NCBI GenBank assembly: GCA_026397015.1
Contig: JAPLVR010000006.1
Coordinates: forward strand, 156,081-220,080
Direction of reading: 5' to 3'
Origin: Candidatus Iainarchaeum sp.
Lineage (GTDB): Archaea; Iainarchaeota; Iainarchaeia; Iainarchaeales; JAAZKV01
DNA length: 64,000 nt
Position 1 is the stretch's first letter. Every line of letters begins with the position of its first letter. Positions 6,041 to 63,426 of the stretch are shown here, in pieces. Below the pieces are notes generated by a model. That model was not told the DNA's origin, searched no databases, and saw only the letters and a list, made by a program, of their open reading frames with translations. A program made the position numbers and the translations under genes.

Positions 6041-6061
6041 AATCTAATGGTTTTGCCAGGG

Positions 6062-7302: not shown

Positions 7303-7373
7303 TGGACCGTGCGGGAATCGAACCCACATCGAATCAATGCCATTGATCCAGCCTACCTTTGGCAGAACGGCCC
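7303..7373 (-). tRNA. tRNA-Ala(GGC)
   Basis: Acceptor GGGCCGT/ACGGTCC with G3:U70; anticodon stem GATCA/TGATT, loop ATGGCAT; T-loop TTCGATT. Confidence 0.85.
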
Positions 7374-7475
7374 CGACACGAAAAATAATCTGGGAAAAAT
7401 TATTAAAGCACACCAATCAACACATTCCCGGCCGCACCAAACCATTTAAATACCTTCATATGAAGAATAATTCAT

Positions 7476-20568: not shown

Positions 20569-20592
20569 ACCACTGCCAACGCAATATCCTCT

Positions 20593-47122: not shown

Positions 47123-47208
47123 CTCTTGAAACACAATAATAACAGTTCAAGCAAAGGGCTGATGGCATGCCAAACCAAAAACCCAAAAAGCTGAACCGAG
47201 GTGAAAAA

Positions 47209-48156
47209 ATGGCGAAAAAAATTGAAAGCATCACTGATTTGCCGGGAGTAGGGGACATTGCGGCAAAGAAACTTGCCGAAGCAGGGTACAAATCATTAGA
47301 GGCGATAGCGGTATCAAGCCCGATGGAACTAAAAGAAATAGCAGGGCTGGGGGACGGAACCGCGGAAAAGGCGATAAAAGCGGCAAGAGATGCGTTGGAA
47401 ATGGGTTTTCAGACGGCAGACATATTGGCTGAAAAGAGAAAACAAGTTGGAAGGCTTACCACAGGATCAAAAGAATTAGACTCCCTTATCGGCGGCGGAA
47501 TAGAAACGCAAAGCATTACCGAAGTTTATGGAAAAATGGCATCCGGAAAAAGCCAATGGTGCTTTCAGACAGCGGTAACGGTGCAACTGTCAAAAGAACA
47601 GGGCGGTCTTGGAGGGGGCTGCTTGTACATTGATTCTGAAAATTCGTTCAGACCGGAAAGAGTAATACAAGTCGCAAAAAAGTTGGGGCTTGACACGGAT
47701 GCTGTTCTAAAAAATATTTTGGTTGCACGCGCATATAATGCGGACCATCAAATGCTTCTGGCGGAAAAAGCCGGAGAAATGGTAAAAGAAAACAACATCA
47801 AACTCGTAATAGTTGATTCGCTCACCGCACAATTCAGGGCGGAATATGTTGGGAGAGGAACGCTCGCAGAAAGGCAGCAAAAATTGAACAAACACATGCG
47901 AGTGCTGCAAAAACTGGCGGAAATGAACAATATCGCGCTTCTGGTAACGAACCAAGTAATAGAAAATCCGGCAATTTTATTCGGAGACCCAACATCGCCT
48001 GTTGGAGGAAATATTGTTGGGCACGCAAGCAAAACAAGGCTCTATTTGAGAAAGAGCAAGGACGACAAGAGAGTCGCAAAACTCATCGATTCACCGTCTT
48101 TGCCTGATGGGGAAGCGATTTATAGGATAACGGAAAACGGGATAGAGGACCTATAA
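47209..48156 (+). CDS. radA: DNA recombinase RadA
   Basis: HhH DLPGVG, GGGIETQSITE, SGKSQ, FRAEY.GRG.LAERQQ. Confidence 0.97.
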   Translation: MAKKIESITDLPGVGDIAAKKLAEAGYKSLEAIAVSSPMELKEIAGLGDGTAEKAIKAARDALEMGFQTADILAEKRKQVGRLTTGSKELDSLIGGGIETQSITEVYGKMASGKSQWCFQTAVTVQLSKEQGGLGGGCLYIDSENSFRPERVIQVAKKLGLDTDAVLKNILVARAYNADHQMLLAEKAGEMVKENNIKLVIVDSLTAQFRAEYVGRGTLAERQQKLNKHMRVLQKLAEMNNIALLVTNQVIENPAILFGDPTSPVGGNIVGHASKTRLYLRKSKDDKRVAKLIDSPSLPDGEAIYRITENGIEDL

Positions 48157-48393: not shown

Positions 48394-49047
48394 TTATTCT
48401 CCAAATTCTTCAATAATTTCTTTTATTTCGCTCGCGGATTCCGCGTAAAAAACCCTTCCTCCGCAATCTTTTACATAGGTCTCAATCTCAAAAGGCAATT
48501 TCTTTTTAACGAAAGGCTTGTAAACAATAGTTGCAAAAGGGACTTTCGAACCTGCGACAACCTTCGGATGAATCTTTTCCTTCAAAACAGAAACATTCGG
48601 CTTCTTCCCCAAAAAAAGTTTATACAAATAATAACCATAAGACAGCTCACCCAACGCGCCGAGGCTCACGCCCAAAACAAGGACAACATCCCCAAAAAGA
48701 CAATGAGTCAAATCCTGCTTATACCAAGTACCAGTATCGATCTCCTCATCAACAATCTTCTTTCCATTAATCTCCGCATCAATAAATTCACGCAAATGCT
48801 TTATCCCAAAATCAGAATCCGACACGGGAACAGTTCCAAAAACCTTCCTCCCGCCTAACTCCTTATACTTTTTCGCAACTTCAAAAGAAACGCCCCTATT
48901 CGGAAGCAAAACAATTTCAGAACCAGAATTAACGAGCGACCCTGCAATCTCTTCAACATGCCTCTCAAAATCCGGCTTCTTCATTTTCAACAATTTAAAA
49001 TAATGAAAATCGACATCGGCTGCACCAATCAAACAAACACGGAGCAT
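48394..49047 (-). CDS. SLOG/LOG-like Rossmannoid protein
   Basis: VCLIG, GV...VA..Y...GG.KV.G.VP, D.V.V.G.S.G...EL. Confidence 0.55.
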   Translation of the reverse strand: MLRVCLIGAADVDFHYFKLLKMKKPDFERHVEEIAGSLVNSGSEIVLLPNRGVSFEVAKKYKELGGRKVFGTVPVSDSDFGIKHLREFIDAEINGKKIVDEEIDTGTWYKQDLTHCLFGDVVLVLGVSLGALGELSYGYYLYKLFLGKKPNVSVLKEKIHPKVVAGSKVPFATIVYKPFVKKKLPFEIETYVKDCGGRVFYAESASEIKEIIEEFGE

Positions 49048-49075
49048 GATAATCACTTCCAACAAACAAAATTTA

Positions 49076-50209
49076 TTACCTCTTATTCAAATTATTTAAA
49101 TTATTCGAATAATTCTTTTCAAATTCTTTCTTATATTTCTCAAACCGGTTCTCTTTCAGCGCCAAGCGGATTTCCTTCATCAAATTTGCCATAAAAAAAG
49201 TGTTGTGATAGCTGAGAAGCATCTGGCCGTTCTGCTCGTGAGTTTTGAATAGGTGGTGAAGGTAAGCACGCGAATGGTTTTTGCAAACGAAACACTCACA
49301 ATTCTTGTCGAGCGAAGCAAACGAATTCTTGCATGTTCCGCGGTCGATTTGCAAAACGCCTGCATGCGTGAAAATCTTTCCGTGGCGAGCCATTCTTGTG
49401 GGATAAGCAGAATCAAAAATATCAACCCCGAGAGAAACAAGCTCCAGAATTTCAAGCGGGGAACCAACACCCATCAAATAAATCGGTTTTTCTTTTGAAA
49501 CAAATTTTTTTGAATAAGAAGTTATCTTGTACATTTCGGAAGCGGGCTCGCCGATGCACAAACCGCCAAAAGCGAGGCCGTCAAAATTCATCTGGTCGAA
49601 AGCGAGAGCGGCTTTTTTTCTCAAATCCAAAAAAGTTCCTCCTTGCGTTATTCCGAATAAAAGCTGGTTCTTGTTTTTGTGGGCGGATTTGCAGCGCTGC
49701 GCCCACTCAATCGTTCGAATCAAAGCATCAATATGCTCCGCTCTTGAAGCGCCAAAGGGGGCGAGGTGGTCAAGGCACATTGCGACATCGCTGCCTAAAG
49801 AGTTTTGAATTTGAATTGCTTTTTCTGGTGTAATTAATTCGACGCTTTTATCAAAAGGATTTCTGAAATAAACACCTTTATCGTTAACATGATGGACAAA
49901 GTTTTTGCTCAATAATTGGAAACCGCCAGAATCCGTGAACATTGATTTGTCCCAAGAAATGAACTTGTGCAAGCCACCGGCTTTCTTTATTGTTTCAAGA
50001 CCGGGCTTCAAGTAATTTATAAAAGCGTTTGAAATCAAGCAATCAATGCCAAATTTTTTTAAGTCAGGGTGAGAAACGTATTTCACGGCGCCCTTGGTTG
50101 CAACCGGCATCAAAAAAGGGGTTTCGACATTGCCGTGAAAAGTGCGCAAAATTCCAGAACGAGCGGAAGAATTTTCTGATTCTGAAATTATTTCAAAGCA
50201 AGGCATCAA
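49076..50209 (-). CDS. tgt: tRNA-guanine transglycosylase, bacterial (G34) type
   Basis: TP..MPVAT, DSGGFQ, QGG, GGL..GE, YLMGVG, C.C..C..H Zn site; no archaeal C-terminal PUA domains. Confidence 0.88.
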   Translation of the reverse strand: MMPCFEIISESENSSARSGILRTFHGNVETPFLMPVATKGAVKYVSHPDLKKFGIDCLISNAFINYLKPGLETIKKAGGLHKFISWDKSMFTDSGGFQLLSKNFVHHVNDKGVYFRNPFDKSVELITPEKAIQIQNSLGSDVAMCLDHLAPFGASRAEHIDALIRTIEWAQRCKSAHKNKNQLLFGITQGGTFLDLRKKAALAFDQMNFDGLAFGGLCIGEPASEMYKITSYSKKFVSKEKPIYLMGVGSPLEILELVSLGVDIFDSAYPTRMARHGKIFTHAGVLQIDRGTCKNSFASLDKNCECFVCKNHSRAYLHHLFKTHEQNGQMLLSYHNTFFMANLMKEIRLALKENRFEKYKKEFEKNYSNNLNNLNKR

Positions 50210-50260
50210 ACAAACGAAAAAATCAACAGGTTTTTAAACACTAAAACGCCTAATTACTTT

Positions 50261-50526
50261 GGACTAGGCCGGGCCGCTAGCGGTGGCTTGTTACCGGAAA
50301 CCCGCTTTATGCCGGGGCCGAAGCTGAGGAAGAGGTTTTGATGCCACTGCAAATGCAGTTTTGATGGCGTCGAAGCTCTGTCCTTACAGGTTCCGTCATA
50401 GGATGAAACCCGCCAGGCTGGGAACAGAGCAACGGTAGTTTTATGTGGGGCGCTGAAGGGCCAACAGAGTGGAGCCACCAAAGCCCAACAATTGCTTTGG
50501 CTAGAAATCCATTTCTTGGCGCGTCC
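50261..50526 (+). ncRNA. ffs: Archaeal SRP RNA (7S)
   Basis: 5' GGAC pairs with 3' GTCC; Alu domain; GCTGAGGAA/TTTCTTGGC helix; helix 8 CCGCCAGG-CTG-GGAA-CAG-AGCAACGG. Confidence 0.88.
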
Positions 50527-50550
50527 ACTTTAAAATCAATCAAGACCCTC

Positions 50551-50933: not shown

Positions 50934-51158
50934 ATGGTTTTTGAGAAGCGAATGTCGGTGAAAGAGCTAATTGAGCAAATGAGAAGGGAACTCCAAGAAG
51001 AAAGAGAAATGGCTGAGGGGATAAAAAAGAAGGCAAAAAAAGCCAAAAAAACGGTCAAAAAGGTGAAAAAACCCTCAAAAAAGAGGGCAAAAAGAAGTAA
51101 GAAATCTGCAAAAAAGAAAGCAAAAAAAACGACCAAGAAAAAGAAGAAGAAAAGATAA
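50934..51158 (+). CDS. Lys-rich small protein (histone H1-like tail)
   Basis: Helical N-part followed by KKAKK repeats. Confidence 0.65.
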   Translation: MVFEKRMSVKELIEQMRRELQEEREMAEGIKKKAKKAKKTVKKVKKPSKKRAKRSKKSAKKKAKKTTKKKKKKR

Positions 51159-51187: not shown

Positions 51188-51499
51188 TCAAATTTTTCTG
51201 CCGAACTTGCGGAACACTTCTTTCTTTAGGTGATCAAGCACTTTTTGAATAACCTCAATGAGTTGCCACCCATCATCGGAGGCAAAAACCAGTCTGCCGC
51301 CGACTAAAAGGCGTGCATGAACCTCGTGATGAATCTTTAGACCTTCGTGGCGATGCTCCTTAAAAGTAAGGTGAAGCTTGACATCTTCGCCGAAAGAAAC
51401 CTTTTTCAAAAAACGCTCAATGTTGCTCTTAATGATGGCGGCATCGACTTCGTCAATCTCGGGAAGTTTTGCAAACTCCACCCCCTCAATCCCAATCAA
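51188..51499 (-). CDS. HPF/RaiA-like ribosome hibernation domain protein
   Basis: beta-alpha-beta3-alpha pattern; HEVHARL....VFAS..GW.L...I...L..L; start uncertain. Confidence 0.55.
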   Translation of the reverse strand: MIGIEGVEFAKLPEIDEVDAAIIKSNIERFLKKVSFGEDVKLHLTFKEHRHEGLKIHHEVHARLLVGGRLVFASDDGWQLIEVIQKVLDHLKKEVFRKFGRKI

Positions 51500-51597
51500 C
51501 CAAAAACACCAAAAGCAAAAGAATGAATAAGTAATGCTTTTCAAGGTTAAAAAGGTTTTGGAACGCCTTTAAAAACGTTTTAAAGGAAAGATATTTT

Positions 51598-53439
51598 ATG
51601 GAAAATGAAAACCGAGAAAAAGAGGAGCTCCTGCAGGCGGCGCCAAAAGAGTGCAGAAAAGGCGTTGAAGAAGCCATTGATTTCCTTGAGGCGGTTTATT
51701 CCTCGGAAGGAGAAACCGGAAGAAAAAAAATAAAACACTTCATCAGAATAGGAAAAATGGATATTGAAAGAAATTTTGAAAGGGAAACGATACTTGGAAA
51801 TATGCTTTACGGGTCAATAGCGGAAAGAAAAACAAACGCCGAAGAAATAGAAAAAAGGTTCGGAAAAAAAACCGCGGAACTTGCAAAGGAAGCCGGAGAA
51901 ATACTTCAAATAATCGGAAGCAACTTCGGGAAAGTGCCGTCGGAAACGCTCAGCTCAATAATGCTTTCGATGACTGAAAATGTCCAAACAACAATGATTG
52001 GAATCGCGGCAATGCTTGACTGGCTCAGAAACATAGAAGAATTAAATGAAAATGAAAGAAAAAAAATAATCGGCATGACAAAAGAAATTTACATACCATT
52101 AGTGATGAAACTCGGGCTGCAAAGCATCACGTGGCAGCTTCAGGATTACTGCTTCAAGGCGGAAAATCCGAAAGCATACGAAAAAATAAAACAGCTGGTC
52201 GGAAAAACGAGGGAAGAAAGAGAAAAACTTGTTGAAGAGGTAAAAGAGGAACTTGGAAAACTGCTGAAGGGAAAAATCGAGGTGCAAATATTCGGGAGAC
52301 CGAAAAACTTCTGGGCAATAAACAAAAAAATGGAAAAAGTGCTGTTCAAAAACATCTACGACCTGTACGGAATCAGGATTATCTGCAATAAGGAAAGCGA
52401 ATGCTACGAAGCGCTCGGCTACATTCATTCAAAATACAAAATAATTCCAGGAACCTTTGACGATTATATTTCAAAACCAAAAGACGAGGGTTACCAAAGC
52501 ATCCATACCACTGTTGAGAGAGGAAACGACATCATTGAATTCCAAATAAGAACATGGGCGCAACACCTCAGGACGGAATCAAACCTTTACTGGAAATACA
52601 GGCGATTAACAAAGGACAGGGAATTCGAGAAAGAACTGAGCTGGGAAAGGCAGCTCATGGAATGGCAAAAAAGCGCGGGAAAGGAAGCGCAGATGAGAAG
52701 TTTCACCGGAAAAAAAATATTCACATTCACGCCGAAAAACGAAGTAATAGTTTTGCCAAAAGAGGCAACTGTTATTGATTTTGCCTTCGCAATACACACT
52801 GATCTTGGCAAAAGAATGGAAAAGGCAAAAGTGAACGGAAAACTCGTTCCGATAGAAATGGAACTAAAAAACCTCGACAGGGTCGAGATAATTGCGTCAA
52901 AACAACCCCGAATAAAAAGAAACTGGGTAAATTTTGCGAAAAGCAGCAAGGCAAAAACAAAAATAAAAGCTCATTTTGGAATCAAGGCGAAAAGGGTGAA
53001 AGCCGGAACGGAAAAAGAAACAATCGGAAAAACGAGAAAAACAAAAACAGCGGAATGCTGCAATCCGCTGCCCGGCGAAGAAGTTGTCGGGGTAAAAACC
53101 AGCAAGAGAAAAATAGTCATACACAGAAAGGATTGCATCAACCTGAAAAAAATTTCTCCGAAAAAAATAATCAAACTTGAATTTATGGGGGAAGAAGGAA
53201 AAACCAGGCTCAAAATAACGGCACTGGACAGAATAGGGCTGCTCGGAGAAATACTTTTAAAAATAAAAAAAAGCGGAGCAACAATAGTCTCAACCGACTT
53301 CAAAATAAAAAAATCGGGATACGTTGAATCAACATTTGAGATAAAAATCAAAAATATCGAGAAACTTGAAAAGCTGGCGGAAGAAATCGAAAAAATCCCG
53401 TCGGTTTACGGTGCCGAAAGGATATCGCAAAAGATTTAA
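51598..53439 (+). CDS. relA: Long RelA/SpoT homolog (pseudo-HD, synthetase, TGS, ZFD, ACT)
   Basis: GRPK, DLYGIRII, DYISKPK..GYQSIHT, EFQIRT, FTPK..DFAFAIHT, CCNPLPG, DR.GLL; HD replaced by LYGS. Confidence 0.88.
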   Translation: MENENREKEELLQAAPKECRKGVEEAIDFLEAVYSSEGETGRKKIKHFIRIGKMDIERNFERETILGNMLYGSIAERKTNAEEIEKRFGKKTAELAKEAGEILQIIGSNFGKVPSETLSSIMLSMTENVQTTMIGIAAMLDWLRNIEELNENERKKIIGMTKEIYIPLVMKLGLQSITWQLQDYCFKAENPKAYEKIKQLVGKTREEREKLVEEVKEELGKLLKGKIEVQIFGRPKNFWAINKKMEKVLFKNIYDLYGIRIICNKESECYEALGYIHSKYKIIPGTFDDYISKPKDEGYQSIHTTVERGNDIIEFQIRTWAQHLRTESNLYWKYRRLTKDREFEKELSWERQLMEWQKSAGKEAQMRSFTGKKIFTFTPKNEVIVLPKEATVIDFAFAIHTDLGKRMEKAKVNGKLVPIEMELKNLDRVEIIASKQPRIKRNWVNFAKSSKAKTKIKAHFGIKAKRVKAGTEKETIGKTRKTKTAECCNPLPGEEVVGVKTSKRKIVIHRKDCINLKKISPKKIIKLEFMGEEGKTRLKITALDRIGLLGEILLKIKKSGATIVSTDFKIKKSGYVESTFEIKIKNIEKLEKLAEEIEKIPSVYGAERISQKI

Positions 53440-53512: not shown

Positions 53513-54205
53513 ATGGAAAAAAAACCGATAATTGAAGTGCAAAATGTGAGCAAAATATATAAAATGGACGAGGTGGATGTGGTTGCGCTTGACGGCGTAA
53601 GCCTGAAAATTTATCCCGGAGAATTTGTTTCAATAATGGGCCCATCCGGCTCCGGAAAAACAACCCTGCTGGATGTATTAAGCGTTCTCATGAGGCCGAC
53701 TCAAGGAAAAATAATTATAAACGGAAAAGACGTTTCAACGCTGAACGACAACGAACTCGCAATAATAAGGGGAAAAACAATAGGATTTGTTTTTCAAACA
53801 TTCAATTTAATTCCAAAATTGAGTGCACTTGAAAACGTAATGATGCCGATGTGGTTCAGGGGAGTTCCATTAAAGGAAAGAAAAGCGAGAGCGGAAGAGG
53901 TGTTAAGGGAAGTCGGACTTGAAGACAGAATGACCCATAAACCAAGCGAACTAAGCGGCGGTCAGAGGCAGAGGGTGGCGATAGCAAGGGCTCTTGCAAA
54001 CGAACCGGAGGTTATTGTAGCGGATGAACCGACCGGAAACCTCGACTCGAAAGCCGGAAAACAGGTTCTGGGAATACTTAAGGAGCTCAATGAGAAGCAA
54101 GGAAAAACTATTTTAATGGTTACTCACAATAAGACTATAGGAAATCTGGCGAAAAGAAGAATAAAACTTTTTGACGGAAAAATATGCAGGGGGGATAAAA
54201 TATGA
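53513..54205 (+). CDS. ABC transporter ATP-binding protein (LolD/MacB-like)
   Basis: GPSGSGKTT, LSGGQRQR, ADEPTGNLD. Confidence 0.95.
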   Translation: MEKKPIIEVQNVSKIYKMDEVDVVALDGVSLKIYPGEFVSIMGPSGSGKTTLLDVLSVLMRPTQGKIIINGKDVSTLNDNELAIIRGKTIGFVFQTFNLIPKLSALENVMMPMWFRGVPLKERKARAEEVLREVGLEDRMTHKPSELSGGQRQRVAIARALANEPEVIVADEPTGNLDSKAGKQVLGILKELNEKQGKTILMVTHNKTIGNLAKRRIKLFDGKICRGDKI

Positions 54206-55407
54206 AAACAAAAATATTACTTGTAATTTTGGTTTTGATAACGGGATTTGCGTTTGCAGCAAATCCAACGCCAACACAATTCAACTACAACCCGAGTCCG
54301 GCGGTGCCAGGTTCCACAATAACAATTCTCATTCAGGTTGAGAATGCCGATAATTATGCAAAAGAAGATGTAATGGTTAAAATTGATGAAAAATATCCTT
54401 TCACAGTAAAGGGGCAAAATGAACAAAACTTAGGAACACTGGAAAAAAACGGGAAAAAACTTGTAGAATACACAATATACGTTGACCCAACCGCGCAAAA
54501 TCAAACTTATCCTATCGATGTCATGACAAAATCAAAAAGCGAACCTAATTGGGTCACAACCCCAAAATCAATAGTTATTGCCGGAAAAAAACCAATTGTA
54601 AAAGTAATGAATATATCGGAAACAAAACTCGTTCCGGGGCAAGAAAAAGAAATAATTTTCACCCTTCAAAATGTTGGAACAAGCGCCGCATACGACATTT
54701 TAGTCGAGCTTGAAGAAGACAGGACTGTAACTGCTACTGGAGTTATTGTTGAAAGGGAAATACTCCCGCTGGGCGCTGCAACCGCGCACATGAGTTCTTT
54801 ACTCCCAGGCGACCAGGAAAGCGTCACAATGAAAGTAAGTGTAAACAAAGAAGCAAGTTTGAAAAATTACACCCTGCCGGTTACGGTTTCATACAGGGAT
54901 TCTGCGGGAACAATAGAAACTGAAACCTCTTACATAGGATTCAAAGTTTCCGGGTTGGTGGAAATCGACGCGACAATAAAAGACGGCGGAACACAGCTGA
55001 TTGCCGGAAAAAGCAACGAAATAACAATAGAAATGTTCAACAAAGGAAACGGAAAAGCTGATTTCATAATTGCGCAAATTGAAGCCGACTGCGGAGAGGC
55101 TGCAAAGACAAAGCAATTCATCGGAACGCTTGAACCAAATGATGTTGATTCTTTTAAGACAACAATAAACTTAGGCCAAAGCGCAAAGTCGGGGCCGTGC
55201 AAAATAAAAGTTGTTTTGAACTACCAGGACGCGGACGCATCCCCAAAAAACAAGGAAATTGAACTTAGCGCGCCGGCATATTCGATTGAGGACGCTGCGG
55301 CACTGGCCGGGGGCGGAATAAATCCATTATTTGTACTTGTAATGTTGGCTATCATTGGATTTGTTGGATACCAAGTTTGGAAAAAAATGAAAAACAAAAG
55401 CAAGTAA
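54202..55407 (+). CDS. COG1361-like S-layer domain protein
   Basis: Signal peptide, P.P..PG, N.G..A Ig-like repeats, C-terminal TM. Confidence 0.8.
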   Translation: MKTKILLVILVLITGFAFAANPTPTQFNYNPSPAVPGSTITILIQVENADNYAKEDVMVKIDEKYPFTVKGQNEQNLGTLEKNGKKLVEYTIYVDPTAQNQTYPIDVMTKSKSEPNWVTTPKSIVIAGKKPIVKVMNISETKLVPGQEKEIIFTLQNVGTSAAYDILVELEEDRTVTATGVIVEREILPLGAATAHMSSLLPGDQESVTMKVSVNKEASLKNYTLPVTVSYRDSAGTIETETSYIGFKVSGLVEIDATIKDGGTQLIAGKSNEITIEMFNKGNGKADFIIAQIEADCGEAAKTKQFIGTLEPNDVDSFKTTINLGQSAKSGPCKIKVVLNYQDADASPKNKEIELSAPAYSIEDAAALAGGGINPLFVLVMLAIIGFVGYQVWKKMKNKSK

Positions 55408-55468: not shown

Positions 55469-56203
55469 ATGCGAAGAATAAGCAGCGGAATAGCCGGGTT
55501 TGATGAACTCGTTGAAGGAGGCTTTCCCGAAGGGAGAAGCTTCTTAATAAGCGGGAGCACCGGAACAGGAAAAACTATTTTTGCAATCCAATTCGTAGTT
55601 CAAGGCGCAATGAAAGGCGAACCTGGAATATACCTGACACTTGACGAGCGCCCGGAACTGATAAGAGAAGACATGCTAAGATTCGGATGGAATCTGAGGG
55701 AACTTGAAGACAAAGGCCTGATGCAAATAATCGACGGAACAATCGCAAAAGTCGGCATACCAAGCGATGAAGAATTTTCACTCCCTGTAACAGGATTCGA
55801 TTTGGACAAACTATTGCTTGAATTGATGAAGGCAATAAAAAAAATAAGGGCGAAAAGAGTGGTAATTGATTCTATTCCCGCATTGGGAATAAACTTTGAA
55901 AACGAACATGAAGTCAGAAAGGCAATATTAAAAACAATTTATTTCCTTTCAAGAGCGGGAGTGACGACCATGCTCACAACCGAAGTCGAAGAAGGCTCAA
56001 AAAGATTCAGCAAATACGGGGTAGAAGAATATGTTGCTGACGGAGTTATAATGCTCCATTACATGGGAATCGGAACACAGAGCAACAGAACGATGCACAT
56101 AAGAAAAATGAGGGCAACAAAGCCGAGCGAAGACCTGCACCCGATGGAAATAACCAATAGCGGAATAAAAATACACAAAGTTGAAGAGGATTATAATTTA
56201 TAA
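55469..56203 (+). CDS. KaiC/RAD55-like RecA-superfamily ATPase
   Basis: GI.GFDEL..GGFP, GTGKT, VIDS, EEYVADGVI, KMRAT. Confidence 0.92.
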   Translation: MRRISSGIAGFDELVEGGFPEGRSFLISGSTGTGKTIFAIQFVVQGAMKGEPGIYLTLDERPELIREDMLRFGWNLRELEDKGLMQIIDGTIAKVGIPSDEEFSLPVTGFDLDKLLLELMKAIKKIRAKRVVIDSIPALGINFENEHEVRKAILKTIYFLSRAGVTTMLTTEVEEGSKRFSKYGVEEYVADGVIMLHYMGIGTQSNRTMHIRKMRATKPSEDLHPMEITNSGIKIHKVEEDYNL

Positions 56204-56416
56204 AAAAAACAAAGCAGCAAATTTCTAAAAAAATCCGCAATTTTTTTCTAAATTCTTTTGAAAAAAATTTCAAATCTGCGCGCAAAACAAATTTTTAAAA
56301 AAATTCAAAAAAAAGGAAATAACAAAGCTTAAATATCAGAAAAGCGTTAATACAATAAACATTTATCAATTAAAATGATAAAGAAAAAATAAGAAATGGC
56401 GAAGGAGGGGATAAAA

Positions 56417-56461
56417 ATGGCAAAGAAAAAGAAGAAAAAAGCAAAGAAAAAAAGAAGGTAA
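56417..56461 (+). CDS. Putative Lys-rich micropeptide MAKKKKKKAKKKRR
   Basis: Strong GGAGG SD and upstream TATA-like ttaaata; in-frame ATG also at 56396. Confidence 0.35.
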   Translation: MAKKKKKKAKKKRR

Positions 56462-56589
56462 CCGCTTTTTGTGAAAAAAATTTAAAGTTTGGCGCGATTG
56501 TGTTCAGTTGCGCCAAGAATTATTTTTGTGAAACTGATTCTCGAACAAGTTTTCAATATCGGTTGTTGAGAGACAAATAAAAAAAATAA

Positions 56590-56702
56590 TGGAGACGGCG
56601 AGATTTGAACCCGCGACACACCGGTCTTCAGCCGATTGCTTGTGGGCGAAAAAAACATAAAAAAAATGCTTAAATTCGTCTCCCAGGCTGAGCTACGTCT
56701 CC
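56590..56702 (-). tRNA. tRNA-Phe(GAA) with 39-nt D-arm intron at 22/23 (56641-56679)
   Basis: Acceptor GGAGACG/CGTCTCC; loop CTGAAGA; BHB with TGGG/CCCA helix. Confidence 0.9.
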
Positions 56703-56730
56703 ATCAAGTAGAATTTCATAAGAAAAGTTT

Positions 56731-57469
56731 TTAATATCTGCTCAAAATGAAAATAGCTCTGTTTTGCTTATTAGCATCACAAAATCCAACAATATTTACA
56801 TATTTTAAAAAATCAGCATGTTTCCTTATTTTAATTCTGACCGCCCGTGTTATTCCTTTTTTTCTTTTGTTCCTTTGCTTTGGAAAATACGGCCCCAAAA
56901 CCTTGATTCCAAAATATTCGTCTAACAAAAAAACAATTTGTTTCATAAATTTAGCCCCACTTTGCAAATTTTCACTTAACTTCCACTGTTCCAGCATTAT
57001 TGACTTTGTTTGCTCAACATTAGCTTCACATGAAAAATAAGCCCTGATGAACGCTCTAAAAAATATTTTTTCTTCAATTATCCAATTAGGAATTAGAAAA
57101 TCTTGAGAAACTTTGGCACCAACTGGAACGCCGCATAAATAAAGTGTTCTTGCCAAGGGTTTAGAATTTATTCCCAAATTAAAAGTCCCATACTTGTTTG
57201 TTGAGCACGGTCTTATTTTGCCTTCAACTGAAAAAATTTTTTTAATGAGACTATTGAAATATTTTAAGGTTTTGAAATCGTTTGAAGTAAAATCAATCCT
57301 CCAACGAGGATGACCTTGAATGTATCGTCACCAATTAGAAAGCCGCAAATCTCCGCACAAGTTCAATAGAAGGACGTAAAGGAAACCAACCTCTAAAGAA
57401 TTCGATGGGTGCTTGAGAAGGCGACCTATAAAAAGACAACAAATCCTCTAATTTCAGAATTGATTTCAT
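56731..57469 (-). pseudogene. LAGLIDADG endonuclease-like gene, doubly frameshifted
   Basis: Reconstructed AEICGFLIGD(G)YI..FTSND, second motif FIRAYFSCEA; two shifts near 57325-57358. Confidence 0.7.
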
Positions 57470-57559
57470 TATAAAAAAAATAATTTATGGCAATAAAAAC
57501 GCTTCGAGGGTTCCCTGCTGGTGAAAAATTTTCAGAGTAAACAACTCAATAAGAATGAG

Positions 57560-57632
57560 CGAGCCCAGGGGGATTCGAACCCCCGACACCCAGATTAAGA
57601 GTCTGGTGCTCTACCAACTGAGCTATGGGCCC
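57560..57632 (-). tRNA. tRNA-Lys(CTT)
   Basis: CCAGA-CTCTTAA-TCTGG; canonical cloverleaf. Confidence 0.96.
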
Positions 57633-57674
57633 ATATTTTCTCTGACTTTTCCACAAAAAATTATTGCGGAGCAT

Positions 57675-57790
57675 AGTCTATCGAGCACTAAGCAAAAGCT
57701 CAAAGCTTTTGCGATGTGTGACAAACCTCGAGTTTGCCACATCAGCGAAGATAGACTTTTTCGCCACAAAGCAAAAGCAAAGCTTTTGCG
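57675..57790. repeat. Nested hairpin element between the tRNA-Lys genes
   Basis: agtctatcgagc...gcgaagatagact enclosing gcaaaagc/gcttttgc and gatgtg/cacatc; second gcaaaagc-gcttttgc hairpin. Confidence 0.55.
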
Positions 57791-57837
57791 TGCATGACAA
57801 AACTTTGTTTTGCCATGTCCTTTATAAAAGGCTGAAG

Positions 57838-57910
57838 CGAGCCCGAGGGGATTTGAACCCCTGACACCTGGATTAAAAGTCCAGTGCTCTACCAACTGAG
57901 CTACGGGCCC
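57838..57910 (-). tRNA. tRNA-Lys(TTT)
   Basis: CTGGA-CTTTTAA-TCCAG; canonical cloverleaf. Confidence 0.96.
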
Positions 57911-58072
57911 ATTTGTGCATTGCTACTAACCAATTGCAAGCTGAAAAATTTTTAAAGGGTTGCAAAAGTCTTTTACTCCCATAAAATTCTACAAATGGGA
58001 TCTTTTATATTAAATTAAGCTTTTTTGAGGAAAGCTTTTCAAAACAATTGACAGATAATTGATTGGAATAAT

Positions 58073-58606
58073 ATGAAAAAAGAGCTTATTGTGTTCAGGC
58101 ATGGGCACAGGATAGTCAGAGATTACAGAGTTACGAGCCATTGCTGCCTAGTGGCAAGGGCGCTGGGGGCGAACAGAATAATTATCTGCGGAGCAAGGGA
58201 TGAGAGCGTTGAAAGAAGCGTTGCAGACGTAAACAAAAGATGGGGCGGGCAGTTTGGGATTGAATTCATAGAAGATTGGAAAAAAGAACTGAAAGAATTG
58301 AAGAAAAAAAAGTTCAAACTGGTTCATCTGACAATGTATGGTTTGCCGGTGCAAAAAGTTGGAAAAAAGCTGCAAAAACTTGGAAAAATTGTTGCGATTA
58401 TTGGATCGCAAAAAGTTGAAAGGGAAATATACGAATTGGCCGATTTTAATGTGAGCGTTACCCAGCAGCCCCACAGTGAAATAGCGGCACTCGCGGTGTT
58501 CCTAGACAGGCTACAAAACGGAAAAGAACTTGCCAAAAAATTTGGGGGCGCCAAAATAAGGGTTGTGCCTTCAAAGAAGGGCAAAAATGTAGTAAATTTA
58601 AAATAA
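58073..58606 (+). CDS. trm56: tRNA (cytidine-56-2'-O)-methyltransferase aTrm56
   Basis: GHR..RD.R.T.H..LVARALGA, VHLTMYG, G..KV, QPHSE.AALAVFLD. Confidence 0.95.
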   Translation: MKKELIVFRHGHRIVRDYRVTSHCCLVARALGANRIIICGARDESVERSVADVNKRWGGQFGIEFIEDWKKELKELKKKKFKLVHLTMYGLPVQKVGKKLQKLGKIVAIIGSQKVEREIYELADFNVSVTQQPHSEIAALAVFLDRLQNGKELAKKFGGAKIRVVPSKKGKNVVNLK

Positions 58607-58627
58607 CTTCCTTGTGGAAGGATATAT

Positions 58628-59164
58628 ATGCCTTTCAAATCGATTACCAACCTGATGTTAGTCAAAGATTTTTTGGACATAGTAGGGGGTCAGGACGCGG
58701 CAACACTTGTTAAATTGTGTGAAAAGAACCGAAAAGGCACAACAGACGAGGAAATATCAAAGAAAATGAAGTTAAGGGTAACTGAAATAAGAACAATTCT
58801 TAATAAGCTGCATTACAGAGGCATTGCTGAATACCAGAAGACCAGAAACCCGAAAACCGGGTGGTATAATTACACTTGGGAAATAAAGAAAAAAAGGATA
58901 GCTAATCTGATAATTGAACAGCAAAATGAAGTTCTTGAAAGATTGGCGAAGAAAAAAAATCTTGAAACAGAATACAGCCTTTTTGACTGTATAAAGTGCA
59001 GTGAAAGGGCGCCATTTGAAATTGCCGCAGAATACAATTTTATCTGCCCAAACTGCGGAAACTCAATGGAATCGGCAAATAACCCAAAAAGAATTAAAGA
59101 AATTAATTCAAAGATGAAAAAAATTGAACAGGAATTGGAAATTTTGAAGAAAACAAATGAATGA
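58628..59164 (+). CDS. tfe: Transcription factor E
   Basis: TDEEI, IR..L.KL, GWY.Y.W, F..A.E..F.CP.CG. Confidence 0.93.
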   Translation: MPFKSITNLMLVKDFLDIVGGQDAATLVKLCEKNRKGTTDEEISKKMKLRVTEIRTILNKLHYRGIAEYQKTRNPKTGWYNYTWEIKKKRIANLIIEQQNEVLERLAKKKNLETEYSLFDCIKCSERAPFEIAAEYNFICPNCGNSMESANNPKRIKEINSKMKKIEQELEILKKTNE

Positions 59165-59362
59165 AAAACACAAATTCCTGGACAACGGAAAGAGCTAAAA
59201 TTGAAATTATTTAAAGTAATAAAAAAGGATTTTTTATTAAACTAAGCCAATAGTAAGTTTTTTTGGAACAAATAAGGTGAAATAGGCTTTTTTTTATTAA
59301 AAAGAGCAAATTATTATCTTAAAGTTGCGCTTTTAAAGATTTTGCAATAGAAGGAAATATAG

Positions 59363-59437
59363 AGCGGGGTAGGGCAGCCAGGAGTGCCCGTCGGGCTCAT
59401 AACCCGAAGGTCGGAGGTTCAAATCCTCTCCCCGCTA
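59363..59437 (+). tRNA. Initiator tRNA-Met(CAT)
   Basis: A1:U72, GGG/CCC anticodon stem, loop CTCATAA. Confidence 0.95.
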
Positions 59438-59989
59438 TTTTTTGAATAAAATGGGGATTTTCGCCGATTTTTGGCAAGAAAATGCACAAATTCATATACA
59501 TAATAGCTGTTTTTTCAAAATTTTTTCATGCACACCTTTTAACTAAATTTGACAAAAATAAACAATAAAACAAAGTTAACCTCAGAGAGCCAAAATTAGC
59601 CAAAAATAAGGACATCACTTTGACCCCCTTTGATCTAAAATTATCGATTATGGCCTATCGAACCAAATAACACGAAAGAATCATGGGATTGCCAAATGAG
59701 GAGGCCACACAAAAACAAGGCAAAGTTGAGTTGAGCGCACCAAATATCAAAAATCTCAAAAATAGAGACAAAGGGACAAATTAGCAAAAAAATGAAAAAA
59801 TACAATGCCCTAACTCTGGCAAACAATTGCAACCAAAATCCATATTTTCAATCTCAAATTAAATCTTTCAAAAAATTCTTAAACAAGGCATCTCACTTCA
59901 ACTAAAAATAGTGCAAGTTGAGCAAATTTAGTAATTACCAGTAACTACGGTCATTAACTATCATTACAGTAAAGATTATAAAGGATTAT

Positions 59990-60008
59990 GGTCATTATAG
60001 TAATGACC
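59990..60008. promoter_or_regulatory. Palindromic operator GGTCATTA-N3-TAATGACC
   Basis: Perfect 8-bp inverted repeat between the TATA and the ATG of the wHTH gene; extra GGTCATTA half-site at about 59949. Confidence 0.55.
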
Positions 60009-60012
60009 AAAA

Positions 60013-60447
60013 ATGGCAGGGATACTTGATTTTATAAAAAATTTGTTTAAGGGTGTCAATAAGCCAAAAGAGGCGATTGAGCAAGCGAGCAAAATATACG
60101 CCGAACCGGAAAAGAGAAAAATAGAGATTCATTCAATCTGGGATTTCTTAAAAATTAACGAAAATACACAAGTGATTTACCTAATAAGTGTAATAAGGTT
60201 TGATGAGTGGGTTACAATGGACGAAATAAGGCAAAGAATATTCGATTTGTTTCAGGTAAATTACCAAAATGAGCGAAGCCTTTACCCCTATTTGAAAACA
60301 ATGGTTGATTTGGGCTTAATGGAGATAAACAACGTTGGCGGAAAAAGAAAATGGCGAAAAAGAGATTTGCTCATAAAAATAGAACAAAAGAAAAAAAGTG
60401 AGGAAGAGAAAGAAGAAATCGCTGTTTCCAGTGAAACAACTGTTTAA
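60013..60447 (+). CDS. Winged-helix DNA-binding protein
   Basis: W.T..EI...I, SLYPYLK.MVDLGL.E....G..R.W pattern. Confidence 0.6.
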   Translation: MAGILDFIKNLFKGVNKPKEAIEQASKIYAEPEKRKIEIHSIWDFLKINENTQVIYLISVIRFDEWVTMDEIRQRIFDLFQVNYQNERSLYPYLKTMVDLGLMEINNVGGKRKWRKRDLLIKIEQKKKSEEEKEEIAVSSETTV

Positions 60448-60467
60448 AAAGCACGATTTCTTGGACA
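60446..60467 (+). repeat. 22-bp inverted repeat, left copy
   Basis: aaaaagcacgatttcttggaca; exact reverse complement at 61250-61271. Confidence 0.85.
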
Positions 60468-60534
60468 CCCCTTACAGCCAAGCGCTAAATTTATTAAAAT
60501 GAATATAATGCGTTTAAAGGCCAAATTCGGCAGT

Positions 60535-61137
60535 TTATTGACTCTTTAAATCTCTAAATGTTTTATAAAAATCGGAAAGCTGCTTAGACTGTGAGTAAAC
60601 CGAAACGAACCAGTCGAGCTCCGCAATCGAACTTGCCCCCTTGACAAGCAGTGCCTTGCTTCCTGCTTCGGGCTTTTTTTCAATTGCTCTTTTCATTTCA
60701 TCAAAAAGACTTGATGGGCCGTCTTTCTTTTCTACAAACCTTCTGGAAATCAATTCTTCAAGAGCAGAAATAACGGCCTTTTCTTCAACATCCTTTTCAT
60801 TCAAAAAATAAGTGCATTTCCAATCTCCTTTTACCCTCCATTTGTGAGTCGGATTATTCCCTGTTTCGAAAAAATTTTGCAGGGATTGGAAGGCGGATTG
60901 CGGAACAATCACGCAATTTTTTCCCGGTCGGATGAAAGGATATCCCGAAAGAACTCCTGGTCTGTAGTAGTGATAAACTTTTCCGCTTGATTTATACACT
61001 GCCTGGGTGTAACCATAAATTGCTCTAAAAAGTTTTTGATAAGTGTAAGACGAGTGCTTAACCGATTCAGGAATTATGAATCTGTATTGAATAAAATAAG
61101 CCTTTATGCCCACACCCCCCACTTCCATTAATAACAA
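60535..61137 (-). CDS. Hypothetical protein enclosed by the inverted repeats
   Basis: 200 aa; LFRAIYGY...Y.YYR.GVL...P motif, tentatively Cas2/VapD/PaaX-like fold. Confidence 0.6.
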   Translation of the reverse strand: MLLMEVGGVGIKAYFIQYRFIIPESVKHSSYTYQKLFRAIYGYTQAVYKSSGKVYHYYRPGVLSGYPFIRPGKNCVIVPQSAFQSLQNFFETGNNPTHKWRVKGDWKCTYFLNEKDVEEKAVISALEELISRRFVEKKDGPSSLFDEMKRAIEKKPEAGSKALLVKGASSIAELDWFVSVYSQSKQLSDFYKTFRDLKSQ

Positions 61138-61249
61138 TAAATAAATATAAAAAACTCTTTATGTATAATAATAATACATAAGTATCTACTATCTTTATTT
61201 AAATTTAATTGCGAGAAATTTTTTATTTCATTAGGTTTTAAGCTGCGAA

Positions 61250-61271
61250 TGTCCAAGAAATCGTGCTTTTT
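61250..61271 (-). repeat. 22-bp inverted repeat, right copy
   Basis: tgtccaagaaatcgtgcttttt. Confidence 0.85.
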
Positions 61272-61425
61272 TCCTTTGTTTATTGCCGTCCATTTTTTGA
61301 AATCCCTGAATGTGATTTGATTAACGGAAGTGGGGTGCCTGGGTAACTATTAAAAAACAGAAAATTGCGGAGACTGCGCTCCGCGCAGAGCAAAAATAAA
61401 AAAAAGGAGAAATTGAAAATAGTTC

Positions 61426-61749
61426 CTACCTTTTGTATCTTCCCGGTCTCAAACTTCCTGGTCTGTAAATTGGGCCCCTTTGTGGTTCTTCTTCAGGTTC
61501 TTCCATAATTGGTGCCCTTCCGTCTACAACGATTATGTCCTTGGCAGACTTTACAGTCCTGTAAGAAATGCTTTTCTCGCTCAGGATTTTCTTTGCTTCC
61601 GCCTTTGACTTTACTTTCAAAGGTTCAGTAGTTATTTTCTCCAATCTCCCCTTTTCCAGGTCGATTATGATATCGTACACCTTTCCCTTGTAGCCACCGT
61701 CAGCGTCGTAAACATCCATTCCGAATAGTTTTGACAATCTCATGCTCAT
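61426..61749 (-). CDS. PRC-barrel domain protein
   Basis: LS.L.GM.VY..DG.Y.GKV.DIIID...G, I.Y..V....DIIVV. Confidence 0.88.
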   Translation of the reverse strand: MSMRLSKLFGMDVYDADGGYKGKVYDIIIDLEKGRLEKITTEPLKVKSKAEAKKILSEKSISYRTVKSAKDIIVVDGRAPIMEEPEEEPQRGPIYRPGSLRPGRYKR

Positions 61750-62051
61750 CTTTAATCACCCGCTTTTACTATACGAATAACAAAGAAGTATTTAAATCTT
61801 TTTATGATGGAAAGAAAACTCAAATTTCCCATTTCATCTTTATTATTAGAATTATGGGGCCACTTTCACACTTCTACATACCGACTTTTTTCGGTTTTTT
61901 TGGCGAAATAAAAATATTTTTGAGGTTTGAAAATTGAAAAAATATTTTCAAAATGAGAATCGATGAAAGTGGAAGAAAAGATAATGTAAAATCTAAAAAG
62001 TGACAATTTTGTAAGAATTTTTTATTATTTTTTTATTTAATGTTTTTTCTT

Positions 62052-63173: not shown

Positions 63174-63426
63174 GGCAGTATTAGGGCTTTAAGGGTTAAT
63201 AAGTTTTTGCGAATCAGGGCAAATCCTATAAGGCAGTCAAGCTTCGAAATGTCCGTGCAAATAAAGAATTCGGAAAAGTTTTACCGGAAGATTTTTTGGG
63301 GCTGTTTTGGCACAAAGCCAATACACTAATCTGGGAAAAAGACCCGAAAATCCGTGTTATTTGGAAAAAAAGCAATCCGACTCATGTTATATTAGAAAAA
63401 TAATTTAAATTGGGTTCAGGGTTTCA

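What the first reader, a model, noticed from the sequence alone, without database searches (positions are those of the whole stretch)
51188..53439. Full-length RelA-type RSH divergent from an HPF-like gene in an archaeon
Seen: synthetase motifs are intact, the HD site is lost, TGS/ZFD/ACT are retained, and it sits head-to-head (about 100 bp) with an HPF-like gene. Known: long ribosome-sensing RSHs are bacterial or plastid, archaea lack an established (p)ppGpp stringent response, and HPF is ppGpp-linked in bacteria. Inference: an archaeal alarmone plus ribosome-hibernation dormancy module. A separate hydrolase would be needed.
Basis: partly seen in the sequence, partly recalled or inferred. Interest (0 to 1): 0.75.

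Follow-up and report, generated by a model that had tools for sequence, protein, structure and literature searches.

The report
Archaeal alarmone synthetase beside hibernation factor
A small archaeon carries a bacterial-style stress-alarm enzyme whose breakdown half is dead, placed head-to-head with a ribosome-parking protein gene; each part was already reported in such archaea, but the pairing and the enzyme's one-way build were not.

Summary
Window 51598-53439(+) encodes a 613-aa long RelA/SpoT homologue (RSH). Window 51188-51499(-) encodes a 103-aa protein with a confident HPF/RaiA fold. The two starts lie 98 bp apart, inside a solidly archaeal contig.

The RSH belongs to a large archaeal clade named Iainarchaeum/Diapherotrites by its sources. 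In trees this clade separates from all 74 sampled bacterial RSHs, including proteobacterial RelA. All 113 archaeal members keep 10 of 10 synthetase residues. None keeps all 7 hydrolase residues. All lack about 85 residues of the helical domain between TGS and the zinc finger.

The neighbour is a stand-alone member of the archaeal HibA/AHA hibernation-factor lineage described in 2026. An HPF-domain gene lies divergently upstream of the RSH in the one other archaeal locus I could read, and in two close relatives by inference.

RelA/SpoT in DPANN was reported in 2021, and stand-alone archaeal HPF in 2026. I did not find in print the one-way design, the domain deletion or the linkage to HPF. Enzyme activity, a hydrolase elsewhere in the genome and functional coupling remain untested.

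The parts
51598..53439 (+). Long RSH gene, 613 aa, with a dead hydrolase half and an intact synthetase half
   Evidence: ORF. Pfam HD_4, RelA_SpoT, TGS and ACT_4. NCBIfam TIGR00691 scores 396.8 bits, below its cut-off of 499.2. PDB relatives are RelA/Rel.
51673..52119 (+). Pseudo-hydrolase (HD-like) domain, residues 26-174
   Evidence: Pfam HD_4, 46.8 bits. HD..ED and DRLHN are replaced by YG..AE and AMLDW. 0 of 113 archaeal homologues keep all 7 scored residues, against 65 of 74 bacterial ones.
52294..52602 (+). Alarmone synthetase domain, residues 233-335
   Evidence: Pfam RelA_SpoT, 99.7 bits. R234, K236, D255, R260, Y299, H303, E314, Q316, R318 and T319 are kept in 113 of 113 archaeal homologues.
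52717..52893 (+). TGS domain, residues 374-432
   Evidence: Pfam TGS, 61.8 bits. The motif DFAxAxH..G (D394, F395, A396, H400, G404) is kept in 112-113 of 113 archaeal homologues; H400, F395 and G404 are invariant.
52894..53046 (+). Short linker in place of the helical (AH) domain
   Evidence: The spacing from the TGS end to the CC motif is 48-59 residues in 113 archaeal sequences. In 74 bacterial sequences the median is 139.5 and the range 77-173.
53047..53142 (+). Zinc-finger domain (CC..H..C), residues about 484-515
   Evidence: C487, C488, H509 and C513 are invariant in all 187 aligned sequences. It aligns to RelA residues 609 onward.
53200..53421 (+). ACT (RRM-like) domain, residues 535-608
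   Evidence: Pfam ACT_4, 50.8 bits.
51188..51499 (-). Stand-alone HPF/RaiA-like gene, 103 aa, TTG start; the ORF could extend to 51544
   Evidence: Pfam S30AE scores 18.4 bits, below the cut-off of 23.7. The AlphaFold model built with 32 homologues has pLDDT 91.7 and the order strand-helix-strand-strand-strand-helix. The 18 best Foldseek PDB rows (ranks 1-18, one left out by the tool as a further chain of a listed entry) are all HPF/pY/RaiA/RafH, with TM 0.63-0.73 and E down to 1.2e-6. The profile hits PDB chain 9sr9_H residues 284-373 (E 0.0021) and Listeria HPF.
51500..51597 (.). Divergent intergenic region, 98 bp, A+T-rich, with TATA-like boxes
   Evidence: Sequence read directly. GGTG lies 8-11 nt upstream of the TTG. 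TTTAAAAA lies 22-29 nt upstream of the RSH ATG. Reading these as promoter elements is inference.
51566..51586 (.). Perfect 9-bp inverted repeat CCTTTAAAA-ACG-TTTTAAAGG over the TATA-like boxes
   Evidence: Found. It occurs once in the window, and 7 of 100 shuffles give at least one match. It is not seen upstream of the RSH in L001.

Best explanation
The plus-strand gene encodes a one-way long RSH. It is an alarmone synthetase, most likely transferring pyrophosphate from ATP to GDP/GTP to give (p)ppGpp. Its N-terminal hydrolase domain survives only as a scaffold. Its C-terminal sensor keeps TGS, the zinc finger and ACT but has lost the helical domain.

It belongs to an archaeal subfamily, named Iainarchaeum/Diapherotrites where the sources give a name. 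The sequences sampled form one group set apart from all sampled bacterial RSHs, which fits a single origin, presumably from a bacterium as Li 2021 proposed. Neither direction nor donor was tested here. The subfamily is not proteobacterial RelA.

The minus-strand gene encodes a stand-alone HPF/RaiA-type factor of the HibA/AHA lineage. By analogy it sits in the mRNA/tRNA channel of the small ribosomal subunit and parks idle ribosomes.

Shown: domain content, residue conservation, fold, clade structure, and gene order in two loci.

Inferred: the product of the enzyme; activation by uncharged tRNA through TGS; ribosome binding of the HPF-like protein; co-regulation of the two genes from the shared 98-bp region as one starvation response.
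For: RSH family and architecture.

The synthetase is under strict conservation. 10 of 10 scored residues are kept in 113 of 113 archaeal homologues, whereas 0 of 113 keep the 7 hydrolase residues (65 of 74 bacteria do). The guanine-stacking Tyr (Y299) and the TGS His (H400) are invariant; their roles are recalled, not tested.

Clade structure: archaeal versus bacterial split 100, window subclade 100 and nested among the more Rel-like archaeal sequences. This holds in FastTree (106 rows) and in IQ-TREE quick (46 rows).

The gene is widespread. One search found 2120 hits. Every readable organism name among the best 120 is archaeal, and contigs reach 985 kb.

HPF fold: pLDDT 91.7 and Foldseek. 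The family spans stand-alone and 4xCBS-fused forms: of 100 representatives, 53 are at most 140 aa and 39 are 300-400 aa. This matches published HibA/AHA.

Linkage:
- L001 (Iainarchaeum) has a CBS-HPF gene at 4036-5145(-), then TIM(-), then the RSH at 5929(+).
- Homologues P0122/P0004 share a contig length of 2908, and P0123/P0003 share 31278.
- Only 1 of 79 bacterial RSH loci has an HPF within 6 kb.
Against: There is no activity data.

[quoted passage not shown] However, the species tested there were not DPANN.

No hydrolase (HD_4, Nudix or second RSH) lies in the 64 kb, and the rest of the genome is unseen.

The helical domain that helps hold RelA on the bacterial ribosome is missing.

Gene-order evidence is thin. 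The flanking Rad51/RadA-family and KaiC genes are syntenic too, so adjacency may be plain inheritance.

0 of 8 more distant stand-alone HPF-like proteins with a known contig length share that length with any of the 120 listed RSHs. Five of those contigs are too short to hold an RSH gene.

Pfam S30AE is below its cut-off.

The bacterial route from ppGpp to hpf expression runs through bacterial RNA polymerase, which archaea lack (established knowledge).
Confidence: 0.6

Rival explanations
1. Both genes work as described, but independently. The head-to-head position is inherited local gene order in Iainarchaeota with no regulatory or functional coupling.
For: The whole neighbourhood is syntenic between the window and L001: Rad51/RadA-family gene upstream and KaiC-like downstream, the latter 61% identical. 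In L001 a TIM gene lies between the two. The palindrome is not conserved in L001. HPF-only proteins occur in 814 archaeal species of 12 phyla (PMC13728122 passage), which is wider than the DPANN phyla in which Li 2021 reports RelA/SpoT (PMC8407392 passage).
Against: The arrangement survives although the RSHs are only 37% identical and the HPF domains only 23%. It also survives the loss of the CBS module and several insertions (Tgt, SRP RNA, ABC genes). Bacterial RSH loci rarely have an HPF nearby: 1 of 79.
Confidence: 0.45
2. The enzyme is active but does not make (p)ppGpp. It might make (p)ppApp, pyrophosphorylate another acceptor such as a tRNA 3' end, or act mainly as a ribosome-bound regulator.
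For: Some RSH toxins make (pp)pApp or modify the tRNA CCA end (abstract of bioRxiv 10.1101/2021.04.30.441581, in the search listing). The window's subclade has a 2-residue deletion and a His-to-Tyr change after the catalytic strand (AAHW becomes YW). No hydrolase was seen.
Against: All 10 scored synthetase residues match bacterial (p)ppGpp-making long RSHs, including the Tyr of the YQS(I/L)HT motif. The known toxic forms are small single-domain proteins, not long RSHs (recalled).
Confidence: 0.15
3. It is a bifunctional Rel whose hydrolase is still active despite the divergent residues.
For: The HD_4 domain is still recognisable at 46.8 bits. Some related archaeal sequences keep the HD pair: H in 25 of 29 and D in 14 of 29.
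Against: The window keeps 1 of the 7 scored residues. No archaeal homologue keeps more than 5, and none of the 29 Rel-like ones has Asp at the DRLHN position.
Confidence: 0.04
4. The RSH is a bacterial contaminant or an assembly chimera.
For: None beyond its bacterial-type family.
Against: Archaeal genes and an archaeal SRP RNA lie within 1-2 kb on both sides. G+C is even. All names readable among the best 120 homologues are archaeal, with contigs up to 985 kb. Gene order is shared with an Iainarchaeum contig.
Confidence: 0.01

Closest known systems
E. coli RelA (monofunctional long RSH; PDB 5iqr, 5kps, 5l3p)
   Same: The hydrolase is dead and the synthetase intact. TGS, zinc finger and ACT are present. 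It has an acidic xFDD motif where bifunctional Rel has RFKD. RelA is the best PDB sequence match, 6e-80.
   Different: It is not in the RelA clade. It scores 296.7 bits against the RelA equivalog cut-off of 728. It lacks about 85 residues of the helical domain. It is 613 aa against 744 aa. The host ribosome is archaeal. No SpoT partner was seen.
Bifunctional Rel of Firmicutes/Actinobacteria (PDB 1vj7, 6yxa; organism names recalled)
   Same: The overall domain order is the same and the similarity comparable: 6yxa_A at 3e-71 and 1vj7_A at 1e-45.
   Different: The hydrolase motifs HD..ED and DRLHN are lost, and the helical domain is missing.
Archaeal HibA / AHA (4xCBS + HPF domain; Nat Commun 2026 PMC13324472; EMBO J 2026 PMC13728122)
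   Same: The HPF domain is homologous. The family profile hits PDB chain 9sr9_H (deposited as 'Dehydrogenase', 392 aa; I take it to be HibA) at E 0.0021. It hits the CBS-HPF protein of L001 at E 4.9e-29. About half of the family representatives are CBS fusions.
   Different: The window protein has no CBS module, so it has none of the AMP sensing ascribed to HibA. It corresponds to the 'HPF/RaiA-like' or 'HPF-only' class that both papers list but did not test.
Bacterial short HPF / RaiA (YfiA, pY)
   Same: The fold is the same, with TM 0.63-0.73 to ribosome-bound HPF, pY, RaiA and RafH. The size is similar, about 100 aa.
   Different: Sequence identity is 10-20%. Pfam S30AE scores 18.4 bits, below the cut-off of 23.7. 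The target would be an archaeal ribosome.

Membership tests
Long RSH (Rel/RelA/SpoT type) | N-terminal HD-type domain followed by a RelA_SpoT synthetase domain | tested here: met
   Pfam HD_4 at 26-174 and RelA_SpoT at 233-335.
Long RSH (Rel/RelA/SpoT type) | C-terminal TGS, zinc-finger and ACT domains | tested here: met
   TGS and ACT_4. CC..H..C is invariant.
Long RSH (Rel/RelA/SpoT type) | Helical (AH) domain between TGS and the zinc finger | tested here: not met
   The spacer is 48-59 aa in 113 archaeal sequences, against a median of 139.5 aa in 74 bacterial ones.
Long RSH (Rel/RelA/SpoT type) | Curated NCBIfam TIGR00691 score cut-off | tested here: not met
   396.8 bits against a cut-off of 499.2.
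RelA subfamily (beta/gamma-proteobacteria) | Hydrolase catalytic residues lost, synthetase kept | tested here: met
RelA subfamily (beta/gamma-proteobacteria) | Branches within the RelA clade | tested here: not met
   The archaeal sequences split from all bacterial ones with support 100. The clade of Polynucleobacter, Rhodanobacteraceae and Arenicellales sequences, three of which have lost the hydrolase residues, lies on the bacterial side.
RelA subfamily (beta/gamma-proteobacteria) | NCBIfam equivalog NF008124 cut-off | tested here: not met
   296.7 bits against 728.
RelA subfamily (beta/gamma-proteobacteria) | EXDD motif (recalled as RelA-typical, against RXKD in Rel) | tested here: inconclusive
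   The window has TFDD. Its subclade has A/S/T-F-D-D (D in 84 of 84 and in 82 of 84). 63 of 74 bacteria have K at the third position.
Bifunctional Rel | Intact HD..ED and DRLHN hydrolase residues | tested here: not met
   The window keeps 1 of 7, and 0 of 113 archaeal sequences keep all 7.
(p)ppGpp synthetase activity | Makes (p)ppGpp from ATP and GDP/GTP | not testable with these tools
   Only residue conservation could be scored.
HPF/RaiA (Pfam PF02482 Ribosomal_S30AE) | Pfam gathering score | tested here: not met
   18.4 bits against 23.7. 4 of 40 scanned family members pass the cut-off, and 16 of 40 hit at E <= 0.01.
HPF/RaiA (Pfam PF02482 Ribosomal_S30AE) | Strand-helix-strand-strand-strand-helix fold | tested here: met
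   pLDDT 91.7. Foldseek TM 0.63-0.73 and probability 1.00 to HPF/pY/RaiA.
HPF/RaiA (Pfam PF02482 Ribosomal_S30AE) | Binds the small ribosomal subunit and blocks translation | not testable with these tools
   No call bears on this.
HibA / AHA | N-terminal four-CBS module | tested here: not met
   103 aa with no CBS hit. No CBS protein is found in the window at E <= 1e-5.
HibA / AHA | C-terminal HPF domain homologous to that of HibA | tested here: met
   Profile against 9sr9_H gives E 0.0021. Against the L001 CBS-HPF it gives 4.9e-29. BLASTP gives 5e-9.

The most novel reading that the evidence does not exclude
Iainarchaeota-type DPANN archaea run a true archaeal stringent response. A synthetase-only long RSH, reshaped for the archaeal ribosome by loss of the helical domain, senses uncharged tRNA and makes (p)ppGpp. 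It is wired through a shared divergent promoter to an HPF-type factor that parks ribosomes. In the window's lineage the hibernation factor could shed its AMP-sensing CBS module because the alarmone pathway took over the sensing. Removal of the alarmone would need a non-RSH hydrolase or dilution.
Probability: 0.2. Interest if true: 0.85.

Novelty: new variant of a known kind. Interest (0 to 1): 0.55.

Why it matters
Two papers I read state that (p)ppGpp or comparable alarmones have not been detected in archaea. Here is a large, well-conserved archaeal clade of long RSHs whose synthetase site is under strict selection while the hydrolase site is gone. It sits next to the only archaeal hibernation-factor lineage with a bacterial counterpart.

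That makes the question 'do any archaea use (p)ppGpp?' directly testable with a defined protein. It also raises a second question: how does a bacterial ribosome sensor work on an archaeal ribosome without its helical domain, and what removes the alarmone?

The components were already in print, so this refines the picture and supplies a lead. It is not a new kind of system.

Tried and rejected
1. The genome-contig scan with an alignment of 14 archaeal RSHs picked patterns that bacteria share. The bacterial loci served as a control and as a tree outgroup.

2. Word-based homologue searches for the HPF-like protein found only 3 proteins and 11 proteins. The exhaustive representative search was needed, but it gives no genomic context.

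3. The listing of cluster members was meant to test adjacency through accession numbers.

It gave 0 among the 8 distant ones, which is mostly uninformative.

5. The single-sequence fold (pLDDT 65.7) gave only weak HPF matches. It was replaced by the alignment-based model.

6. The sequence search of the HPF-like protein against PDB found nothing real.

7. The ESM Atlas search on the Lys-rich 74-aa ORF gave nothing usable.

8. The palindrome in the intergenic region is single and not conserved in L001, so I give it little weight.

The RSH tree in the supplement of PMC8407392 and the HPF-only lists of the 2026 papers may bear on the novelty claim.
Full report
**What is there**

The window holds two divergent ORFs. 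One is 51598..53439(+), 613 aa. The other is 51188..51544(-), 118 aa at its longest. Three homologues of the minus-strand protein all start at the position of the TTG at 51499, giving 103 aa. A GGTG lies 8-11 nt upstream of that TTG. The two starts are therefore 98 bp apart.

The setting is archaeal.
- An archaeal SRP RNA lies at 50257-50530.
- Flanking genes include a Rad51/RadA-family recombinase, a replication-factor-A-type ssDNA-binding protein and KaiC-like.
- Further out lie HerA/NurA, Hjc, S19e, L31e, eIF6, prefoldin, SRP54, an SRP54-type GTPase (FtsY-like), PcrB, aTrm56 and TFE-alpha.
- G+C is even at about 0.40-0.41.

Contamination or chimerism is not a serious option.

**The RSH**

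Pfam finds HD_4 (26-174), RelA_SpoT (233-335), TGS (374-432) and ACT_4 (535-608). NCBIfam's RelA/SpoT subfamily model scores 396.8 bits, below its cut-off of 499.2. The RelA and SpoT equivalogs are far below theirs. The best solved relatives are:

| PDB chain | Depositor's name | E-value |
|---|---|---|
| 5iqr_8 | GTP pyrophosphokinase (E. coli RelA, recalled) | 6e-80 |
| 8fr8_I | GTP pyrophosphokinase RelA, 797 aa | 3e-78 |
| 6yxa_A | GTP pyrophosphokinase, 562 aa | 3e-71 |

I aligned 112 of the 120 best database homologues, dropping 8 shorter than 570 aa. I added 75 of the 80 RSHs from the fetched loci, dropping 5 shorter than 570 aa. That gave 187 rows. I split the archaeal rows by rank:
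- tier 1: 84 rows, 46-100% identical to the window;
- tier 2: 28 rows plus L001, 36-42% identical.

The 74 bacterial rows form the third group.

I scored seven positions of the bacterial hydrolase motifs: the H of HP, HD, ED, and the D and N of DRLHN. Their catalytic role is recalled from the Rel structure literature.
- All seven are kept in 65 of 74 bacteria.
- All seven are kept in 0 of 113 archaeal sequences. The maximum is 5; the commonest count is 0 in tier 1 and 3 in tier 2.
- The window keeps one.

Ten synthetase positions are kept in 113 of 113 archaeal sequences. These are R234, K236, D255, R260, Y299, H303, E314, Q316, R318 and T319.

So the whole archaeal clade, not only this gene, is synthetase-intact and hydrolase-degenerate.

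Tier 1 has an acidic A/S/T-F-D-D where most bacteria have R-F-K-D. It also has a 2-residue deletion with His-to-Tyr just after the catalytic strand.

The TGS motif with its His, and the CC..H..C of the zinc finger, are invariant in the archaeal rows. In the bacterial rows this invariance is partly by construction, because those two motifs were the scan patterns.

The distance from the TGS end to the CC motif is 48-59 residues in the archaeal sequences. In bacteria the median is 139.5 and the range 77-173. Most of the helical domain is therefore absent. In my recollection of the ribosome-bound RelA structures, this domain helps clasp the A-site tRNA and the A-site finger.

**Phylogeny**

| Tree | Rows | Archaeal vs bacterial split | Tier 1 as one group |
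|---|---|---|---|
| FastTree | 106: every 5th tier-1 row, every 2nd tier-2 row, all 74 bacteria | 100 | 100 |
| IQ-TREE quick, LG+G4 | 46 | SH-aLRT 100 | 100 |

In both trees tier 1 is nested among tier-2 sequences. A clade of Polynucleobacter, Rhodanobacteraceae and Arenicellales sequences sits well inside the bacterial side; I take it to be proteobacterial RelA, since three of its members have lost the hydrolase residues.

'RelA-type' is thus right as a description of the one-way design but wrong as family membership. The loss of the hydrolase is convergent.

The bacterial sample was chosen by similarity and has no plastid RSHs. No donor can be named.

Where the sources give a readable organism name, the close homologues are called 'archaeon', Candidatus Iainarchaeum or Diapherotrites. 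The window's KaiC-like neighbour is 61% identical to that of the Iainarchaeum locus L001.

**The neighbour**

Pfam S30AE scores 18.4 bits, under the cut-off of 23.7. Sequence search against PDB finds nothing.

An exhaustive profile search found 100 representatives at E <= 0.001. 53 are at most 140 aa and 39 are 300-400 aa. Of the 40 I scanned, 13 carry CBS domains and 16 hit S30AE at E <= 0.01, with 4 above the cut-off.

With an alignment of 32 stand-alone members, AlphaFold gives pLDDT 91.7 and pTM 0.82. The order is strand-helix-strand-strand-strand-helix. The 18 best Foldseek PDB rows (ranks 1-18, with one rank left out by the tool) are all ribosome-bound pY, HPF, RaiA or RafH, with TM 0.63-0.73 and E down to 1.2e-6. 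The family profile also hits PDB chain 9sr9_H (392 aa, residues 284-373, E 0.0021) and Listeria HPF (E 0.0061).

This matches the HibA/AHA family published in 2026. That family is four CBS domains plus a C-terminal HPF/RaiA domain, which sits in the mRNA/tRNA channel of the archaeal 30S. Both papers also list stand-alone forms:
- 'HPF/RaiA-like', in 8% of archaea, mostly DPANN and Nitrososphaerales, thought to arise by loss of the CBS module (PMC13324472, passages);
- 926 'HPF-only' proteins in 814 species (PMC13728122, passages).

The window protein is one of these stand-alone forms. They have not been tested experimentally.

**Is the pairing conserved?**

I could read DNA for only one other archaeal locus, because my single genome scan returned mostly bacteria. 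In L001 (Iainarchaeum, tier-2 RSH) the order is:
- intein-bearing RadA;
- CBS-HPF, 4036-5145(-);
- TIM, 5154-5828(-);
- RSH, 5929-7782(+);
- KaiC-like.

The window has the same frame: the Rad51/RadA-family gene, then the HPF-domain gene(-), then the RSH(+), then KaiC, with different insertions.

For two close relatives, the HPF-like and RSH clusters share contig lengths of 2908 and 31278. A 2.9-kb contig leaves room only for neighbours.

As a control, a profile of the family was run over 7303 ORFs of all 80 loci plus the window. It found an HPF within 6 kb of the RSH in 1 of 79 bacterial loci (L032). That hit is a true S30AE at 74.4 bits, which shows the profile can see bacterial HPF.

Against the pairing:
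- The neighbourhood as a whole is syntenic.
- The sample is tiny.
- Eight more distant stand-alone HPF-like proteins show no contig-length match to the 120 listed RSHs.

**Mechanism**

Most likely the RSH is a one-way alarmone synthetase. The TGS domain would read the uncharged 3' end of tRNA. The zinc finger and ACT domains would anchor it on or release it from the ribosome. The dead hydrolase domain would serve as a scaffold.

The HPF-like protein would occupy the decoding channel of idle small subunits, as the HibA C-terminal domain does.

The 98-bp A+T-rich spacer has TATA-like boxes for both directions. It also holds a perfect 9-bp inverted repeat at 51566-51586. This is compatible with shared control, but the repeat is not conserved in L001.

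Every functional step here is inference. What removes the alarmone is unknown. No HD_4, Nudix or second RSH lies in the 64 kb, and the contig is 220 kb, so most of it is unseen.

**Novelty**

Atkinson 2011 found no long RSH in archaea (PMC3153485, passages). Li 2021 reported RelA/SpoT in 69% of Diapherotrites, 41.7% of Woesearchaeota, 21.3% of Pacearchaeota and 19% of Nanoarchaeota, as a bacterial acquisition, in a single sentence (PMC8407392, passage).

My searches covered these term sets:
- Diapherotrites + ppGpp;
- archaea + RSH + ppGpp + long RSH;
- archaea + hibernation factor + CBS;
- archaea + ppGpp + DPANN;
- Iainarchaeota + stringent response, 0 papers;
- hibernation + SpoT + DPANN;
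- archaeal + alarmone synthetase + ppGpp.

None turned up a description of the hydrolase-dead state, the missing helical domain or the linkage to an HPF gene. The HibA paper has no occurrence of 'ppGpp'. I did not open supplements.

I rate this a new variant of a known kind, of moderate interest.

Noticed in passing
window 49076-50209 (-): The tRNA-guanine transglycosylase here scores as the bacterial queuine type. TIGR00430 gives 400.8 bits against a cut-off of 306.75. The archaeosine TgtA model gives 178.4 bits against 350. This is another bacterial-type gene, 1 kb from the RSH pair.
   Followed up: partly
window 48394-49065 (-): A 223-aa ORF with no Pfam or NCBIfam hit. The ESM Atlas places it with SLOG cluster4 / LOG-like clusters: 26 of 30 hits, scores 0.92-0.96. 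A LOG-family nucleosidase is a ppGpp target in E. coli (recalled), so this is a lead only.
   Followed up: partly
window 50934-51158 (+): A 74-aa ORF with an acidic helical head and a very Lys-rich tail, convergent with the HPF-like gene (their stops are 30 bp apart). It has no family, and the Atlas gave nothing usable. It could be a small nucleic-acid- or ribosome-binding protein, or no gene at all.
   Followed up: partly
window 53513-55407 (+): A LolD/MacB-type ABC ATPase and a 401-aa CARDB-domain membrane protein lie between the RSH and the KaiC-like gene. They are absent from that position in L001.
   Followed up: no
window 56000-63200: G+C drops to about 0.355. The stretch holds two tRNA-Lys, a tRNA-Met and a tyrosine-recombinase/integrase gene at 62052-63173(-). 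It may be an integrated element.
   Followed up: no
window 19933-21237 (-): Two thymidylate-kinase-family genes in tandem.
   Followed up: no
L001 3-3608 (+): The RadA gene of the Iainarchaeum locus runs to more than 1200 aa with intein-like insertions. The window's Rad51/RadA-family gene (47167-48156) has none.
   Followed up: no
L002 and L004 (bacterial RSH loci): The shortest bacterial TGS-to-zinc-finger spacers, 77 and 80 aa, belong to an unclassified 'bacterium UBA9089' and a Saccharibacteria MAG. Partial shortening of the helical domain also occurs in some small-genome bacteria.
   Followed up: no
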